A DNA stretch of 64,000 nt from an uncultured Bacteroidaceae bacterium. GTDB lineage: Bacteria > Bacteroidota > Bacteroidia > Bacteroidales > SM23-62. Shown here piece by piece: positions 18,774 through 31,343 of this stretch; position 1 is the stretch's first letter, and the number at the start of each line of letters is the position of its first letter. The stretch lies in the NCBI GenBank assembly GCA_964420035.1, contig CAYQQR010000021.1, positions 430-64,429 on the forward strand. The letters run 5' to 3'. The notes under the pieces are model-generated. The model had not been told where the DNA came from. It saw nothing but the letters and a program-made list of their open reading frames with translations, and made no database searches. Both the position numbers and the translations under genes were made by a program.

Positions 18774-18881
18774 TTCAGGATTCAGCCTGCCTGCCGGCAG
18801 GCAGGGATTCAGGATTCAGGATTAGGGTGTGGGTGTGTAAACCATAAACTAAGAACTTAGAACTTAGAACGGGGAACCGGG
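18774..18881. repeat. patchwork of 7-nt tandem units filling the whole atpG / disrupted-gene spacer
   Basis: attcagg attcagc; gattcag gattcag gattagg; tgtaaac cataaac taagaac ttagaac ttagaac ggggaac (six heptamers ending in AAC). Confidence 0.75.
18786..18805. terminator. perfect 20-nt GC-rich palindrome between convergent genes
   Basis: cctgcctgcc|ggcaggcagg. Possible bidirectional terminator, but there is no T-run on either side. Confidence 0.4.
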
Positions 18882-18883
18882 AT

Positions 18884-20202
18884 TTATCGAAGGATATAAT
18901 TATAATTCTCCCAAAACTCCCTGTCGGGGATGCCGAGCTGGTCGGATAGGGATTTGCGGCGTTTGACATAATCCCGTGCTTTGATGTCGAAAGTGTTTTT
19001 CCCCAGATAATCGGTTATCACCATCAGGATATCATCATTAATTTCAGCAAGGTACAGATCGTTCAGCCACAGAAGACGGAACCCATAGTTGATCCGGACC
19101 TTGGCCAGGTACCAGAGCCCCTCTTGCCGGGTAAAATGTACGCTGCAGGTATAAGCGGTGGTTTCCGTGTAGATATCGAGTCTGCTCAGGATCTCCCGGG
19201 TAAAATACTCCAGGACCAGGGTGTTTTTGATATGGTAGGGACTGATCTCGTATTCCAGTGCGGTGAAAGCCAGGCTCCGGGCATCGATCTTCAGGCTTCC
19301 CCTGAAAACACCCCGTTTCTGGCCCGGGAGGGGCTGGAAATGGATATGGTAGTATGCGCCGCCCTGGGGATCGTTTTTTCTCTCCAGGGAGTATTGATAG
19401 TACTTGAAATACCTGGGTTCAAGAAAGTTGTATCTTGTCCTGGGGATGGTTATGAAATCGGCATATTTACAAAAATCCGACCGGATGGCTTCATAAGGAC
19501 CGTCCACAAAATCAATGTAGAGCCATACACGGGTTCTCCGGGTTTCCTTCTGTTCCCTGCCCTTGATGATGCTGATGCGGTCTTCTTCCCCATCCCGGGC
19601 ATAGGCTCCTTTGTTTAAAGACAGCACTGCTTCCAGCTCCTGGATTTTCTTCCCGTTTTCCAGGATGGTTTCCCTGTAGAAAGCAAAGGCCCCGGTGGTG
19701 TAATCCGGGTAATTTTGAGGAATTTTTTCCAGGGCCCTCCGGATTACATCTTCTGCTTTACCCGACCTGAAAGTCACTGCTTCGATTTCATGTTGCAAGG
19801 GAAGCAGGAAAATTTCCAGGCTGTCCTGTGATTGCCTGGAAATCATCAATCTCCGAGTTGTATAGGCTATGTGACGGATGATCAGGCTGTCGGTATGACG
19901 GTCTGGGGACCAGCGGAGTTCAAAACAGCCCTGCCGGTTGCTGAGTGTTCCCCGTCCGTCGCTTTTTCTAATCTCTATGGGGTTAGTTCCCCGAAGCTCT
20001 GCTTCGAGAAGAAGTATTAATTTTGTTAATACCTCGTGGCTCTGCCGCGAGGTAGTTTATTGATATGTGCAAAGGGAATGGCCTGCAGGGTGCGTCCATC
20101 CAGGATCCTGCCCGTGAAAAAATCATGATCCCGCGGCCGGGCCGGCAAACGGACCATGAGCAGAAAGAATAATACAAACCAGCATGCTTTGCCGTATATC
20201 AT
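18884..20202 (-). pseudogene. CarboxypepD_reg-like domain protein, interrupted by a 71-bp element
   Basis: The N-terminal fragment 20026..20202 (MIYGKACWFVLFFLLMVRLPA...FFTGRILDGRTLQAIPFAHIN) stops at a TAA inside the insert. The remaining ORF is open from 20056 to 18884 in another frame with no start codon before 19849. Deleting 19983..20056 (74 nt) fuses the two frames. Confidence 0.65.
19986..20056. mobile_element. MITE/REP-like double-hairpin element (71 bp) flanked by a TTA direct repeat
   Basis: Hairpins CGAAGC-tct-GCTTCG (19992-20006) and ACCTCGTGGC-tct-GCCGCGAGGT (20031-20053) flank an AT-rich core. TTA at 19983-19985 and at 20057-20059. Lies inside a disrupted CDS. Confidence 0.55.
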
Positions 20203-20250: not shown

Positions 20251-23200
20251 TCAAGAAACATATTCATCCCAGCTCTTGACGGCCATATCTTCCGGATTGA
20301 TCTGGCAGAAGGCAATGATGAAGGCGCTGGCCAGGCGGGCGTTTGTGATCAGGGGTATGTTGAAGTCAACGGCAGACCGGCGGATCAGATAATCGTTGCT
20401 GAGCTCTGTCTTGGACAGGTCCTTGGGAATATTGATCACCAGGTCGATCATCTTGCTCCTGAGATAATCCAGGGTGTTGGGTTTCTTATCCTCGTCGGGC
20501 CAGGCCAGCACGGTGGCTTCAATACCGTTTAACCTCAGAAAATCTGCTGTTCCACGGGTGGCAAAAAGGTTATAACCCTTTTCGGCAAGCAAGCGGCAAC
20601 TATTAACGAGTTCGACTTTCGAACGCATGGGTCCGGTGGAGAGCAGGATATTTTTCTCCGGTATCCGGTAACCTACGGAAAGCATGGCTTTCAGAACGGC
20701 CTCGTAGTAATCGTCGCCGATACACCCAACTTCCCCGGTGGAGGCCATTTCGACCCCCAGGATGGGATCGGCCTTGTGCAGGCGGGAGAAAGAGAACTGG
20801 GGTGCCTTGCAACCGATATGGTCCAGGTCGAATATGGATTTATGGGGTTTTTCCACGGGGAGTTCCAGCATGATCCGGGTGGCCAGATCGATAAAATTGG
20901 TTTTAAGCACCTTGGAGACAAAGGGCATGCTTCGTGAGGCACGCAGGTTGCATTCGATGACTTTAATCTGGTTGTCCTTGGCCAGGAACTGCATATTGAA
21001 GGGGCCGCTGATGTTCAGCTCACGTGCAATGTCGCGCGTGATCTTCTTGATCCTGCGTACGGTTTCAAAATAGATCTTCTGGGGCGGAAAGACCATGGTG
21101 GCATCCCCGGAATGTACCCCGGCGAATTCGACATGTTCGGAAATGGCATAAGCAATCAGTTCTCCCTCACGGGCAACGGCATCGATCTCGATTTCCTTGG
21201 CCTGCTGGATGAATTCAGAGACCACCACCGGGTACTGTTTGGAAATCTTTACGGCCAGGTTCAAAAAGTGTTCCAGCTCATCGGCGTTGGAGACCACGTT
21301 CATGGCTGCTCCGGAAAGCACGTAGGAAGGTCTGATCAGGACCGGGTAACCGACGTCATCGACGAATTTATGTATGTCGCCGATGTTGGTGAGCTCTCTC
21401 CAGCGGGGCTGGTCGATCTGCAAACGGTCCAGCAGCATGGAAAATTTGTGCCGGTTCTCCGCACGGTCGATCGACTCGGGGGAGGTCCCCAGGATCCTGA
21501 CCTCCTGATCGTGTAAACGCATGGCCAGGTTATTGGGAATCTGTCCGCCCATCGAGACGATCACGCCCAGGGGCTTTTCCAGATCTATTACATCCAGGAC
21601 CCTTTCCAGGGAGAGTTCGTCGAAATACAGGCGGTCGCAGACATCATAATCCGTGCTTACCGTCTCCGGGTTGTAATTAATGATCACCGAGCGGTAATTT
21701 TCTTTGTTGATGGTGTCCAGTGCATTGACGCTGCACCAGTCGAATTCAACACTGCTTCCAATCCGGTAGGCACCCGAGCCCAGCACGATCACCGATTTTT
21801 TGTCATCATAGAATTCCAGGTCGTGTTCCTGTCCGCTGTAGGTCAGGTAAAGATAGTTGGTCTGGGCCGGGTATTCTGCTGCCAGGGTATCGATCTGCTT
21901 GACGCTTGGAAGAATGCCCCGCTTTTTCCTTTCCTCCCGTACTTTCAGCATATCGGCCGGTATCCGGTCGGTGGGCGATTTGAGGCAGAGGCGGGCAATT
22001 TGGAAATCGCTGAATCCTAAAACTTTTGCTCTTTTCAGTACCGCGCCCGGGAGCTTTTCCAGGGTATGATGTAATCCCAATTCCTTCCCCATCCGGTACA
22101 GGTTCATCAGTTTTTCCAGGAACCAGCGGTCGATTTTGGTGTGCTTGTGGATGTCGTCGATGCTGTAACCCTTTTTAAAGGCTTCGGCAATTACGAAGAT
22201 ACGCATGTCGGTGGGCTCCTTCAGTTCTTTGTCAATGTCCTCGAATTTCAGGTCGCGGTTTCCCAGGAAGCCGTGCATACCCTGGCCGATCATGCGCAGA
22301 CCTTTTTGTATGACTTCTTCGAAGGTGCGGCCGATGGCCATCACTTCACCCACGGATTTCATGGAACTGCCGATCTGCTTGGATACTCCGATGAACTTAT
22401 TCAGGTCCCAACGCGGGATTTTACAAACGATGTAATCCAGGGCGGGCTCGAAAAAGGCCGGGGTGGTCCGGGTAACCGAATTCTTCAGTTCATGAAGGCC
22501 ATAGCCCAGTGCGAGCTTGGCGGCTACAAAAGCCAGGGGATAGCCCGTGGCTTTGGAGGCCAGGGCCGAGGAACGCGAAAGCCGGGCATTCACCTCGATC
22601 ACCCGGTAATCCTCCGATTCCGGATCCAGTGCAAACTGGATGTTGCATTCCCCCACCACGCCAATGTGCCGGATGATCTTGATGGCCAGCCGGCGAAGCA
22701 TATGATATTCCGAATTACTCAAAGTTTGGGACGGAGCTACAACAATGCTTTCTCCGGTATGGATGCCCAGAGGGTCAAAATTCTCCATGTTACAAACGGT
22801 GATACAATTGTCATATTGATCCCGAACTACCTCATATTCAATCTCTTTCCATCCTTTCAGCGATTCTTCCACCAGGATTTGCGTGGAATAGGAAAAGGCC
22901 GTGGAAGCCAGACGAATCAATTCTCCCTTGCTGGTGCAAAAACCACTGCCCTGACCGCCCAGGGTAAAGGCGGCCCGGATGATGATGGGATAACCCAGCT
23001 CTTCAGCTGCCTGAACGGCCTGGTCTGCCGAGGTTACGGCAATGCTTTTGGGGGTGTCGACCTGAATTTCCCTGAGCTTTCTTACAAAAAGGTCGCGATC
23101 CTCTGTATCCTGGATGGCCCGCACCGGGGTACCCAGGACTTTCACATTGTATTTTTCAAGAATACCCTCCTGGTGCAGCCTGATCCCGCAATTGAGGGCC

Positions 23201-23475
23201 GTTTGACCCCCAAAAGCCAGCAGAATACCCTGGGGCTTTTCTTTTTCTATGACCCGTGTAACGAATTCAGGGGTTATGGGAAGGAAATAGACCTTGTCGG
23301 CGATGTGCTCGGAAGTTTGGACCGTAGCAATGTTGGGATTGATCAGGATGGTCTGGATCCCTTCTTCACGCAAGGCTTTCAGTGCCTGGGAACCTGAATA
23401 ATCAAATTCCCCGGCCTCTCCGATCTTTAAGGCACCCGATCCCAGTACAACAGCCTTCTTTATTTCTGACTTCAT
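20251..23475 (-). CDS. carB: carbamoyl-phosphate synthase large subunit
   Basis: 1074 aa with duplicated ATP-grasp halves and a typical CarB N-terminus KAVVLGSGALKIGEAGEFDYSGSQA. Confidence 0.97.
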   Translation of the reverse strand: MKSEIKKAVVLGSGALKIGEAGEFDYSGSQALKALREEGIQTILINPNIATVQTSEHIADKVYFLPITPEFVTRVIEKEKPQGILLAFGGQTALNCGIRLHQEGILEKYNVKVLGTPVRAIQDTEDRDLFVRKLREIQVDTPKSIAVTSADQAVQAAEELGYPIIIRAAFTLGGQGSGFCTSKGELIRLASTAFSYSTQILVEESLKGWKEIEYEVVRDQYDNCITVCNMENFDPLGIHTGESIVVAPSQTLSNSEYHMLRRLAIKIIRHIGVVGECNIQFALDPESEDYRVIEVNARLSRSSALASKATGYPLAFVAAKLALGYGLHELKNSVTRTTPAFFEPALDYIVCKIPRWDLNKFIGVSKQIGSSMKSVGEVMAIGRTFEEVIQKGLRMIGQGMHGFLGNRDLKFEDIDKELKEPTDMRIFVIAEAFKKGYSIDDIHKHTKIDRWFLEKLMNLYRMGKELGLHHTLEKLPGAVLKRAKVLGFSDFQIARLCLKSPTDRIPADMLKVREERKKRGILPSVKQIDTLAAEYPAQTNYLYLTYSGQEHDLEFYDDKKSVIVLGSGAYRIGSSVEFDWCSVNALDTINKENYRSVIINYNPETVSTDYDVCDRLYFDELSLERVLDVIDLEKPLGVIVSMGGQIPNNLAMRLHDQEVRILGTSPESIDRAENRHKFSMLLDRLQIDQPRWRELTNIGDIHKFVDDVGYPVLIRPSYVLSGAAMNVVSNADELEHFLNLAVKISKQYPVVVSEFIQQAKEIEIDAVAREGELIAYAISEHVEFAGVHSGDATMVFPPQKIYFETVRRIKKITRDIARELNISGPFNMQFLAKDNQIKVIECNLRASRSMPFVSKVLKTNFIDLATRIMLELPVEKPHKSIFDLDHIGCKAPQFSFSRLHKADPILGVEMASTGEVGCIGDDYYEAVLKAMLSVGYRIPEKNILLSTGPMRSKVELVNSCRLLAEKGYNLFATRGTADFLRLNGIEATVLAWPDEDKKPNTLDYLRSKMIDLVINIPKDLSKTELSNDYLIRRSAVDFNIPLITNARLASAFIIAFCQINPEDMAVKSWDEYVS

Positions 23476-29946: not shown

Positions 29947-31200
29947 ATGGAACATAAAGAACTGAATAATAAAGGCCGGCTTGCCAGGGAGGTCTCCAAA
30001 GTCATTATGCTGGCAGGAACCGATGTAAAAAATAAAGTGCTCGAAGATGCTGCCGCGGGACTTGAAGCGGCAAAGGACGAGCTGATAAGGACCAACAGGA
30101 AGGATCTGGATTTTGCAAAAGATAAAGGAATTTCCGGGGCTTTTTACGACCGCCTGATGCTCGATGAAAAAAGGATCGACAGCATGAGCGGGGGTTTGAG
30201 AGAAATTGCAGCCCTGGATGATCCTGTCGGCGAGGTGGTGGAAATGTCCCGCAGGCCCAATGGACTGGAGATTGGTAAAAAACGTGTGCCCATGGGGGTT
30301 ATCGGTATCATCTATGAATCCAGGCCCAACGTAACCGCGGATGCTTTCGGTTTGTGTCTGAAAACCGGTAACACGACCTTATTAAGGGGGGGGAAAGAAG
30401 CTATACATTCAAACCTGGGCATAACAGCCATTCTTCAACAAGCCCTTATACAGAATGATCTTCCGGCCGAAGGGGTGCAACTGGTGGAAGATACCAGCCG
30501 GGACTCTTCGGTGGCCATGATGAAGCTGGACCAATACCTGGACATCCTTATTCCACGGGGTGGTGCCGGATTGATCCGGGCGGTGGTCGAAAACAGCCGG
30601 GTGCCGGTCATTGAAACCGGGGTAGGGAACTGTCATGTTTATATCGACAAGGATGCTGACGCGGAAAAGGCATTACAGATCGCCGTGAACTCAAAGGTGC
30701 AAAGACCTGGGGTATGCAATGCCGCCGAGAGTTTGCTGATCCATAAAGATATTTTTGAAAAAATGGCGGAAAGGCTTGCCGAAGCTTTTCAGGAGCATAA
30801 AGTTGAAATCCGGGGCGATGACCTGGTGGTGAAGCACTTTCCCGGGGCCAGGGCAGCCACGGAAGAGGATTGGGCTACGGAATACCTCGACCTGGTGCTG
30901 GCCGTCAGGGTGGTTGATTCCCCCGAAGAAGCCATCCGGCATATAAGCCGCTACGGTACCCGGCACACCGAAGCCATCGTAACTGAAAATTACACCACGG
31001 CCCGCCGTTTTGTCGATGAGATCGATGCAGCTGCCGTGAATGTCAATGCTTCCACCCGTTTTACCGACGGTTTTGAATATGGCTACGGGGCCGAGATCGG
31101 GATCAGTACCCAGAAGCTGCATGCACGCGGCCCCATGGGATTGCGGGAATTAACCACTACGAAATACGTGGTTTACGGGGATGGACAGGTCCGGGAGTGA
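29947..31200 (+). CDS. proA: glutamate-5-semialdehyde dehydrogenase
   Basis: 417 aa with catalytic-Cys context VCNAAESLLIH and a typical ProA C-terminus. Confidence 0.95.
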   Translation: MEHKELNNKGRLAREVSKVIMLAGTDVKNKVLEDAAAGLEAAKDELIRTNRKDLDFAKDKGISGAFYDRLMLDEKRIDSMSGGLREIAALDDPVGEVVEMSRRPNGLEIGKKRVPMGVIGIIYESRPNVTADAFGLCLKTGNTTLLRGGKEAIHSNLGITAILQQALIQNDLPAEGVQLVEDTSRDSSVAMMKLDQYLDILIPRGGAGLIRAVVENSRVPVIETGVGNCHVYIDKDADAEKALQIAVNSKVQRPGVCNAAESLLIHKDIFEKMAERLAEAFQEHKVEIRGDDLVVKHFPGARAATEEDWATEYLDLVLAVRVVDSPEEAIRHISRYGTRHTEAIVTENYTTARRFVDEIDAAAVNVNASTRFTDGFEYGYGAEIGISTQKLHARGPMGLRELTTTKYVVYGDGQVRE

Positions 31201-31230
31201 TTATTGGTTTTATATGAATTACCCGAGCGC

Positions 31231-31339
31231 GTTCCCCGTAGCTCTGCCGCGGGGTAAGCGAGCACCATTAAAATAAACAATGAATCGATGATTGGCTCCG
31301 CCGGGTTAAAGGTTCCTCGCGGCTTGCCGCGAGGAGAGT
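31231..31339. mobile_element. related double-hairpin REP/MITE-like element (109 bp), intergenic
   Basis: Starts gttccccgtagctctgcc and ends ccgcgaggagagt, matching the termini of the 19986..20056 element. Hairpins at 31234-31254 and 31314-31335 with an AT-rich core. Confidence 0.45.
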
Positions 31340-31343
31340 CAAT

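What the first reader, a model, noticed from the sequence alone, without database searches (positions are those of the whole stretch)
19983..20059. 71-bp double-hairpin element with a TTA duplication splits a secreted CarboxypepD_reg-like gene, and clean excision restores the frame
Downstream of carB, the minus strand encodes a signal peptide plus the start of a carboxypeptidase-regulatory-like beta-sandwich (MIYGKACWFVLFFLLMVRLPA...FFTGRILDGRTLQAIPFAHIN, ATG at 20202). This fragment runs into a TAA at 20026-20028. The rest of the fold (NPIEIRKSDGRGTLSNRQGCFELRWSPDRHTDSLIIRHIAYTT...) continues in a different frame. That frame is open from 20056 down to 18884 but has no ATG/GTG/TTG before 19849. 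Between the two parts lies gttccccgaagctctgcttcgagaagaagtattaattttgttaatacctcgtggctctgccgcgaggtagt (19986-20056). It consists of hairpin CGAAGC-tct-GCTTCG, an AT-rich core, and hairpin ACCTCGTGGC-tct-GCCGCGAGGT. It is bracketed by TTA (19983-19985) and TTA (20057-20059). Removing the element plus one TTA (74 nt, which is 2 mod 3) fuses the two frames into ...PFAHINNPIEIRKSD.... This is the footprint expected from a recent insertion of a small non-autonomous element into a coding sequence. REP-type palindromes are normally extragenic, so a datable in-gene insertion is unusual. It would also make this element family easy to study for activity.
Basis: partly seen in the sequence, partly recalled or inferred. 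Interest (0 to 1): 0.7.

Follow-up and report, generated by a model that had tools for sequence, protein, structure and literature searches.

The report
Tiny IS200-derived element splits a gene

Summary
A two-hairpin block interrupts a minus-strand CarboxypepD_reg-like gene, and removing 74 nt fuses the two frames. The boundaries and the "TTA duplication" are wrong.

Comparison with other copies and with two empty sites shows the mobile unit is 89 nt (window 19972-20060). It sits immediately 3' of TCTAA (19967-19971) and has no target-site duplication.

It is an internal-deletion derivative of a ~536-bp IS200-group insertion sequence, that is, ends only (a PATE/MITE). The deletion removed the 447-nt tnpA region, whose ORF encodes a 148-aa Y1/HUH transposase (Pfam Y1_Tnp, 1.9e-36).

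Identical 89-nt copies with the same deletion junction lie at two other loci in a Bacteroidales MAG. One of them is in a RhuM/Fic gene whose intact homologues show exactly an 89-nt gap.

Removing 89 nt from the window gene gives ...PFAHIIRKSDGRGT... (409 aa).

No tnpA lies in the window, and no empty site of this particular gene was found.

Verdict: a real, probably recent insertion. It is a new member of a known kind and of modest interest.

The parts
19967..19971 (+). Target motif TCTAA. This is host DNA, the transposon-adjacent motif immediately 5' of the element.
   Evidence: It is conserved 5' of every copy. Positions -5 to -1 read T 15/17, C 16/17, T 16/17, A 17/17, A 17/17 while further upstream varies; two rows (L044, L101) were put in the wrong register by the regular expression. 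It is retained in the empty sites L102 and L103.
19972..20060 (+). The 89-nt tnpA-less IS200-group derivative (PATE/MITE): TCTCTATGGGGTTAGTTCCCC...GGTAGTTTAT. Its placement has a 1-nt ambiguity (19973-20061) because T flanks both junctions.
   Evidence: L005 and L011 match 100% over the 94 nt at 19967-20060, in different flanks. An identical copy aligned against two empty sites shows an exactly 89-column gap. It aligns to both ends of the ~536-bp full-length copies.
19990..20008 (+). Left-end (LE) imperfect hairpin CCCGAAGC-TCT-GCTTCGAG. The perfect core is 19992-20006.
   Evidence: In the diverged copy L090 the stem changes compensatorily (CGCCGC/GCGGCG).
20026..20029 (+). Internal deletion junction, 20028|20029, with TTA microhomology. 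The 447 nt that contain tnpA in the parent IS are missing here.
   Evidence: Alignment A4 of the three short copies against the full-length copies L009, L098 and L100. The blastn segments 1-62 and 60-94 overlap by 3 nt.
20030..20054 (+). Right-end (RE) hairpin TACCTCGTGGC-TCT-GCCGCGAGGTA. It lies in direct orientation to the LE hairpin.
   Evidence: (I1 and direct repeat D1).
20056..20060 (+). Terminal motif TTTAT, the transposon-encoded right cleavage motif. Diverged copies have TTCAT.
   Evidence: Every complete copy ends ...T(T/C)AT and the next base varies.
20061..20202 (-). 5' fragment of the broken gene: signal peptide plus the start of the CarboxypepD_reg-like domain (M1...PFAHI). As it stands it reads on into the element and stops at TAA 20026-28.
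18884..19971 (-). 3' fragment of the broken gene (IRKSDGRGT... to the stop codon). It has no start codon of its own before TTG 19849.

Best explanation
**What it is.** Window 19972-20060 is an 89-nt non-autonomous derivative of a very compact (~536-bp) IS200-group insertion sequence of the IS200/IS605 family. It keeps only the two ends. The left arm carries the LE hairpin and the RE hairpin is followed by the terminal GTTTAT. A microhomology (TTA) deletion has removed the 447 nt that contain tnpA.

**How it got there (inferred).** Like its parent, it would be moved in trans by a Y1/HUH TnpA through single-strand 'peel-and-paste' transposition. TnpA binds the two hairpins on the top strand (here the window + strand). 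It cuts 3' of the flanking TCTAA and 3' of the terminal TTTAT, then re-inserts the single-stranded circle 3' of another TCTAA. This makes no target duplication.

**What it did here.** The element landed inside codons 47-49 of a 409-codon gene for a signal-peptide-bearing CarboxypepD_reg-like protein. It is antisense to the gene. It introduces a frameshift and a stop, so only a 58-aa product can be made from the real start codon.

**Shown versus inferred.**
- Shown: the element's boundaries, its target motif, the absence of a duplication, its descent from a tnpA-bearing IS, and several identical copies at different loci.
- Inferred: mobilisation in trans, that the insertion is recent, and loss of gene function.
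For: 1. **Parent element.** L009 387-927 has the same left arm and hairpin, then a 148-aa ORF, then the same right hairpin and end. The ORF is Pfam Y1_Tnp at 1.9e-36. It matches the solved ISDra2 and ISHp608 TnpA structures at 6e-18 and 3e-16. The HUH motif (H61-V-H63) and Y127/Q131 align with those structures.
2. **Descent by deletion.** The window element matches L009 at 95% over nt 1-62 and 94% over nt 60-94 of the 94-nt query (window 19967-20060). Alignment A4 shows a clean 447-nt internal deletion.
3. **Transposition after the deletion.** L005 and L011 match 100% over those 94 nt, have the same deletion junction, and lie in unrelated flanks.
4. **Exact ends and no duplication.** The L011 copy interrupts a RhuM/Fic gene. 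The DNA of 88%-identical intact homologues (L102, L103) aligns with exactly an 89-column gap. The empty site is GTGT^ATTAGACC, which reads TCTAA^T in element orientation.
5. **Target motif.** TCTAA precedes essentially all 17 copies while the sequence further out varies.
6. **Window gene.** Removing 89 nt gives a 409-aa ORF whose junction AHIIRKSDGRGT matches the homologue consensus ASIILxSxxxGT without a gap.
7. **Hairpins.** The fold has z = -5.3 and the stems change compensatorily in the diverged copy L090.
8. **Published mechanism.** IS200/IS605 elements have hairpin ends, no inverted repeats and no duplication. They insert 3' of a tetra- or pentanucleotide, excise without a scar, and have ends-only PATE derivatives mobilised in trans (PMC7290912; PMC10055086).
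Against: - No tnpA lies in the 64-kb window (tblastn).
- No empty site or close intact orthologue of this particular gene was found. The best homologue is 34% identical, and the metagenome scan for any empty-site variant returned nothing. For this locus the 89-nt excision therefore rests on the identical copy in L011, on the reading frame, and on distant homologues.
- No read data were available, so population heterogeneity or a chimeric assembly at this locus cannot be excluded directly.
- The guide/target base-pairing expected for this family was not demonstrated. TTAG lies 5' of the LE hairpin and is complementary to CTAA, but some copies have TAAG with the same target.
Confidence: 0.9

Rival explanations
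1. A 71-bp MITE of the classical cut-and-paste (DDE transposase) type that created a 3-bp TTA target-site duplication. Removing the element plus one TTA (74 nt) would restore the gene.
For: TTA is present on both sides of the 71-nt block, and removing 74 nt does fuse the frames.
Against: - The repeated unit in other copies extends beyond both TTAs.
- The empty sites show an 89-nt insertion with no duplication.
- The ends TCTCTATG... and ...TAGTTTAT are not inverted repeats, and the two hairpins are in direct orientation (D1).
- The parent encodes a Y1 transposase, not a DDE transposase.
- The 74-nt product keeps five element-encoded residues (NNPIE) that all aligned homologues lack, and its domain score falls below the Pfam cut-off.
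Confidence: 0.02
2. A REP/BIME-type domesticated palindrome maintained by a single-copy RAYT (the TnpA-REP system) that happens to lie in a gene.
For: The element has GC-rich hairpins with an AT-rich spacer. JGI labels several homologues of the transposase 'REP element-mobilizing transposase RayT', which is a COG-derived name. A second hairpin family sharing the GTTCCCCG.AGCTCTGC motif sits intergenically in the window and is abundant in one MAG.
Against: - The tnpA gene lies inside a discrete ~536-bp unit with the same LE and RE as the short element.
- That unit is found at many unrelated loci with the same TCTAA flank. This is how an insertion sequence behaves, not a single-copy RAYT flanked by inverted REPs.
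- NCBI names the homologues IS200/IS605 family transposase.
- All three short copies are intragenic.
Confidence: 0.05
3. An assembly artefact or minority variant. The repeat was stitched into the contig by the assembler, or the insertion is carried by only part of the population, so the gene is intact in most cells.
For: The window looks like a metagenome-assembled contig. The element is a multi-copy repeat. An independent Logan assembly of SRR7048218 breaks before reaching the element.
Against: The junctions fall exactly at the family's target motif and terminal motif. Exactly one full 89-nt unit is present and its removal restores a well-aligned ORF. A chimeric join would not be expected to reproduce this. 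Population heterogeneity remains possible, and it is compatible with the main explanation.
Confidence: 0.05

Closest known systems
IS200-group insertion sequences of the IS200/IS605 family (IS200, IS608/ISHp608, ISDra2)
   Same: - Y1/HUH TnpA with HUH and Tyr/Gln aligned to the ISDra2 and ISHp608 structures.
- Subterminal imperfect hairpins at both ends in direct orientation and no inverted repeats.
- Insertion 3' of a conserved pentanucleotide and no target duplication.
- Mechanism as described in PMC7290912 and PMC10055086.
   Different: - The window copy has no tnpA at all.
- The parent is unusually compact at 535-541 bp: 89 nt of ends plus a 447-nt tnpA region whose stop codon overlaps the RE. 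From memory, IS200 itself is about 700 bp.
- The target motif TCTAA differs from TTAC (IS608) and TTGAT (ISDra2); those two motifs are also from memory.
PATEs (palindrome-associated transposable elements): ends-only IS200/IS605 derivatives such as the PATE-like ISGst elements of Geobacillus stearothermophilus
   Same: The element has only the LE and RE with their hairpins and no coding capacity. It is present in several copies that share their ends with a tnpA-bearing element, and it is presumed to be mobilised in trans (PMC10055086 and PMC7290912).
   Different: At 89 nt it is much shorter than the one example for which a length was read here (about 271 nt, PMC7290912). It derives from a tnpA-only (IS200-type) parent, so it carries no TnpB guide RNA (omega RNA). 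The host lineage is Bacteroidales.
REP/BIME elements and their RAYT transposases
   Same: Short GC-rich hairpins recognised by a Y1 HUH protein of the same superfamily.
   Different: From general knowledge, REPs are extragenic, and RAYTs are single-copy, REP-flanked and not part of a discrete mobile unit. Here the transposase sits inside a multi-copy IS and the short copies are intragenic.
Classical MITEs with terminal inverted repeats and target-site duplications (e.g. Correia elements; Tc1/IS630- or IS5-derived MITEs)
   Same: A small, non-coding, multi-copy derivative of an insertion sequence that can interrupt genes.
   Different: It has no terminal inverted repeats and no duplication, and its parent encodes a Y1 rather than a DDE transposase.

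Membership tests
IS200/IS605-family non-autonomous derivative (PATE) | Imperfect subterminal hairpins at both ends, in direct orientation, without terminal inverted repeats | tested here: met
   LE hairpin 19990-20008 and RE hairpin 20030-20054. They form a 27-nt direct repeat, D1, at 74% identity. The ends TCTCTATG and TAGTTTAT are not inverted repeats.
IS200/IS605-family non-autonomous derivative (PATE) | Insertion immediately 3' of a conserved tetra- or pentanucleotide target | tested here: met
   TCTAA lies 5' of essentially all 17 copies while the outer flanks vary. The empty sites L102 and L103 contain TCTAA at the insertion point.
IS200/IS605-family non-autonomous derivative (PATE) | No target-site duplication; exact removal regenerates the original sequence | tested here: met
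   The occupied/empty alignment A3 shows an 89-column gap and nothing duplicated apart from a 1-nt T ambiguity. Removing 89 nt from the window restores a gapless match to the homologues.
IS200/IS605-family non-autonomous derivative (PATE) | Ends shared with an autonomous element that encodes a Y1 HUH TnpA | tested here: met
   L009, L098, L099 and L100 are 535-536-bp units with the same ends. L043 is a more diverged full-length copy: 541 bp, TnpA 82% identical, a variant left arm and the same RE end. Identity to L009 is 94-95%. Their ORF is Y1_Tnp at 1.9e-36 and matches PDB 2XM3 and 2A6M.
IS200/IS605-family non-autonomous derivative (PATE) | Lacks a transposase gene of its own | tested here: met
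   The element is 89 nt with stops in all three minus-strand frames (read directly from the sequence). tblastn with TnpA finds nothing anywhere in the window.
IS200/IS605-family non-autonomous derivative (PATE) | Mobilised in trans by the cognate TnpA (excision and integration activity) | not testable with these tools
   Indirect support only: three identical copies with one shared deletion junction at unrelated loci.
IS200/IS605-family non-autonomous derivative (PATE) | Top strand oriented on the lagging-strand template | tested here: inconclusive
   The top strand is the window + strand. The + strand GC skew is weakly positive (+0.02 to +0.09) over most of the window, which fits the expected orientation. 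It is a single locus and no replication origin is known.
   Both TTAs belong to the element. The empty sites show no duplication.
   The true termini are not inverted repeats.
REP/BIME with RAYT | Extragenic location of the repeats | tested here: not met
   All three 89-nt copies lie within coding sequences.
REP/BIME with RAYT | Single-copy transposase gene flanked by inverted REPs, not part of a mobile unit | tested here: not met
   tnpA lies inside a discrete multi-copy unit with direct-orientation hairpins and a constant TCTAA flank. No complete genome was available for counting copies.

The most novel reading that the evidence does not exclude
IS200/IS605 excision is scarless and the rest of the 409-codon ORF is intact. 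The 89-nt element could therefore act as a reversible on/off switch for this secreted or surface CarboxypepD_reg-like protein. The gene would be off while occupied and restored exactly when a TnpA elsewhere in the genome peels the element out, giving population-level phase variation. The fact that all three identical copies sit inside coding sequences would then reflect use rather than accident. A separate point: the ~536-bp parent may be smaller than any autonomous insertion sequence so far catalogued, with 89 nt as a natural minimal substrate.
Probability: 0.08. Interest if true: 0.55.

Novelty: new member of a known kind. Interest (0 to 1): 0.3.

Why it matters
**For annotation.** The two ORF fragments at 18884-20202 should be called one gene interrupted by an IS200-family ends-only element. 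They are not two genes, and this is not a TTA-duplicating MITE.

**For transposon biology.** The locus provides three things:
- A cleanly delimited, very small (89-nt) natural substrate of a Y1 transposase, with known target motif TCTAA.
- Its compact ~536-bp parent.
- A natural excision reporter, because scarless removal restores an ORF.

All of this fits the established peel-and-paste model, so it extends the catalogue to Bacteroidales rather than changing understanding.

Tried and rejected
- **Rfam scan of the whole window:** no family reached its gathering score, so this is not a known structured RNA.
- **Translational bypass or hopping across the insert:** considered from the sequence and dropped. 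There are no matching take-off and landing codons, and the block proved to be a multi-copy transposon derivative.
- **Other excision lengths:** 92-nt and 86-nt excisions also restore the frame, but they score lower (29.6 bits for 92 nt) or disagree with the empty sites.
- **An apparent conflict in L011:** an ORF-spanning test suggested a different length modulo 3 there. The cause was an independent 8-nt deletion upstream in that pseudogene. In the true frame the same 89 nt fit.
- **Metagenome scan for any empty-site variant of the window gene** (flanks with a 0-30 nt gap): 0 hits.
- **Viral-contig scans** for the deletion junction and for the left end: 0 hits.
- **Logan contig carrying the same 3' fragment (L104):** it stops short of the element and is uninformative.
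- **Guide/target base-pairing:** I tried to read it from the LE and RE sequences. The pairing is only partial and not consistent across copies, so I make no claim.

Full report
**1. The observation**

The minus strand downstream of carB (20251-23475) carries an ORF from ATG 20202. It encodes a signal-peptide-like N-terminus and the start of a CarboxypepD_reg-like domain, and it ends at TAA 20026-28. The rest of the protein lies in another frame. That frame is open from 20056, but its first possible start codon is TTG 19849.

It is unique in the window. It contains hairpins at 19992-20006 and 20030-20054 and has TTA on each side. Removing 74 nt gives a single 414-aa ORF. As single-stranded DNA the region folds far better than shuffled controls: -18.5 kcal/mol, z = -5.3, with 0 of 200 shuffles as stable.

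**2.

The two hairpins are direct, not inverted, copies of one ~27-nt unit (D1). A degenerate pattern for that unit also hit a second place in the window, at 31234.

Many hits are chance matches in GC-rich genomes.
- On the left, TCTAATCTCTATGGGGTTA.
- On the right, GGTAGTTTAT.

Two loci from one MAG (L005 and L011; CAZJYD01, 'uncultured Bacteroidales') are 100% identical to window 19967-20060 over 94 nt, in unrelated flanks.

**3. What it derives from**

In L009 the same left arm and hairpin are followed by a 148-aa ORF and then the same right hairpin and end.
- The ORF is Pfam Y1_Tnp ('Transposase IS200 like'), E = 1.9e-36.
- It matches the solved TnpA structures of ISDra2 (2XM3, 6e-18) and ISHp608 (2A6M, 3e-16). 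The HUH motif (H61-V-H63) and Y127/Q131 align with those structures.
- A metagenome scan with the left end found five more loci carrying the left end and tnpA (L097-L101). Three of them are complete units; the other two are truncated.
- Complete units are 535-541 bp.

Alignment A4 shows that the window element and its two identical siblings equal the full-length IS minus the 447 nt that contain tnpA. The deletion is joined at a TTA microhomology, window 20028|20029. Identity to L009 is 95% for the left part and 94% for the right part. Three copies share one deletion junction in three different flanks, so the short form spread after the deletion arose.

The transposase family is very common. 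More than 6,700 proteins scored E <= 1e-50, mostly on short contigs. NCBI names them 'IS200/IS605 family transposase [Bacteroidales bacterium]'. No tnpA lies in the window.

**4. Exact ends, target and absence of a duplication**

A first ORF-spanning test across all copies seemed to give conflicting lengths modulo 3 for the window and for L011.

The L011 copy interrupts a RhuM/Fic-type gene. Intact homologues at 88% identity exist. The protein alignment showed that L011 carries a separate frameshift just upstream of the element.

I fetched the DNA of two intact homologues (L102, L103) and aligned it with L011. The alignment shows an 8-nt deletion 30 nt upstream and, at the element, a gap of exactly 89 columns. 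The empty site is ...GTGT^ATTAGACC.... In the element's orientation this reads ...TCTAA^T.... The 89 nt TCTCTATGG...GTTTAT were inserted 3' of TCTAA and nothing was duplicated. There is a 1-nt T ambiguity, which L005, with C after the end, resolves in favour of TCTAA|T.

Across 17 copies the five bases before the element are TCTAA almost without exception, while the bases further out vary. Every complete copy ends in T(T/C)AT followed by a variable base.

This is the signature of IS200/IS605 elements. They have hairpin ends, no inverted repeats and no duplication. They insert 3' of a tetra- or pentanucleotide read by a DNA guide at the foot of the hairpin, and they excise without a scar (PMC7290912; PMC10055086).

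**5. Consequence for the window gene**

Applying the same 89 nt (19972-20060) to the window gives a 409-aa ORF with the junction ...AIPFAHI|IRKSDGRGTLSN.... The five homologues aligned at the junction (22-34% identical, 396-421 aa) read A-S-I-I-L-x-S-x-x-x-G-T there.

The CarbopepD_reg_2 score by amount removed is (cut-off 32.2 bits):
- 74 nt: 25.7 bits.
- 92 nt: 29.6 bits.
- 89 nt: 36.8 bits.

The gene has no other lesion and the element is identical to its siblings, so the insertion is probably recent; this is an inference. No close intact orthologue was found. No empty site of this gene was found either, and a Logan contig with the same 3' fragment ends before the element. The locus-specific empty allele therefore remains unobserved.

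**6. Mechanism (inferred from the family)**

TnpA dimers bind the LE and RE hairpins on the top strand, which here is the window + strand. They cut after the flanking TCTAA and after the terminal TTTAT, release a single-stranded circle and seal the donor without a scar. The circle is then pasted 3' of another TCTAA in single-stranded DNA, typically at replication forks.

The weakly positive GC skew of the + strand fits the expected lagging-strand-template orientation, but it is a single case. TTAG lies just 5' of the LE hairpin and is complementary to CTAA of the target. Some copies have TAAG with the same target, so I make no claim about the guide. Stem changes in the diverged copy L090 are compensatory, which argues that the hairpins are under selection.

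**7. Rivals**

- The TSD-forming MITE model is refuted by the empty sites.
- A REP/RAYT system is unlikely. The transposase sits in a discrete multi-copy unit with a constant target flank, and the short copies are intragenic.
- An assembly chimera is unlikely, given exact motif-to-motif junctions and one complete unit. Population polymorphism cannot be excluded without reads.

**8. Novelty and interest**

Ends-only derivatives of IS200/IS605 elements (PATEs) and their mobilisation in trans are established. This is a new member from Bacteroidales. It is notable mainly for its small size: an 89-nt derivative of a ~536-bp parent whose tnpA stop codon overlaps the right end. All three identical copies lie inside genes, antisense to them.

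Interest is modest (0.3). The least ordinary reading still open is a reversible, scarless gene switch (about 8%).

Noticed in passing
window 31215-31343 (+): A second, related ends-only element of 124 nt (31220-31343) lies between the convergent proA (stop at 31200) and carA (stop codon 31344-46). It starts right after TGAAT and ends ...GGAGAGTCAAT. It has two hairpins sharing the GTTCCCCG.AGCTCTGC motif (31234-31253 and 31314-31335). The same family occurs at least 12 times among the fetched loci of MAG CAZRZY01, always with TGAAT on the left and TTCAAT at the right end. No tnpA-bearing parent was seen.
   Followed up: partly
L011 600-1300: The RhuM/Fic ('death-on-curing'-like) gene that holds the identical 89-nt element also has an 8-nt deletion 30 nt upstream of the insertion and a further frameshift near the Fic motif. 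It is a decaying pseudogene.
   Followed up: yes
L005 7488-7581: The third identical 89-nt copy replaces the last 8 codons of a membrane-protein ORF...DKFLVRVPADI* becomes ...DKFLDKLPRGRATRY*. All three copies are therefore intragenic and antisense to the gene they sit in.
   Followed up: partly
L053, L090, L094, L079, L033, L052 (positions as): Other short derivatives of the same IS lineage. L053 has a different internal deletion, between two GAATATG repeats. L090 (92 nt) and L094 (89 nt) are diverged two-hairpin forms with compensatory stem changes. L079, L033 and L052 are single-hairpin units that keep a related left arm and the TT(C/T)AT end.
   Followed up: no
L009 387-927; L098, L099, L100, L043: The autonomous parent is only 535-541 bp: 89 nt of ends plus a 447-nt tnpA region. 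The ORF starts at GTG, 1 nt past the deletion breakpoint (2 nt after the TTA microhomology). Its TAA stop is part of the right end. From memory this is smaller than IS200 (~700 bp), but it could not be checked against ISfinder.
   Followed up: partly
L009 1149-2284 (-): Next to the IS200-like copy lie two minus-strand ORFs that look like a split DDE transposase with an N-terminal helix-turn-helix (IS630/Tc1-like by eye). They were not analysed.
   Followed up: no
window 18800-18880: Just downstream of the broken gene there are short tandem motifs, reading on the minus strand GTTCTAAGTTCTAAGTTCTTAG and CCTAATCCTGAATCCTGAATCC. The first contains unoccupied TCTAA motifs on the minus strand.
   Followed up: no
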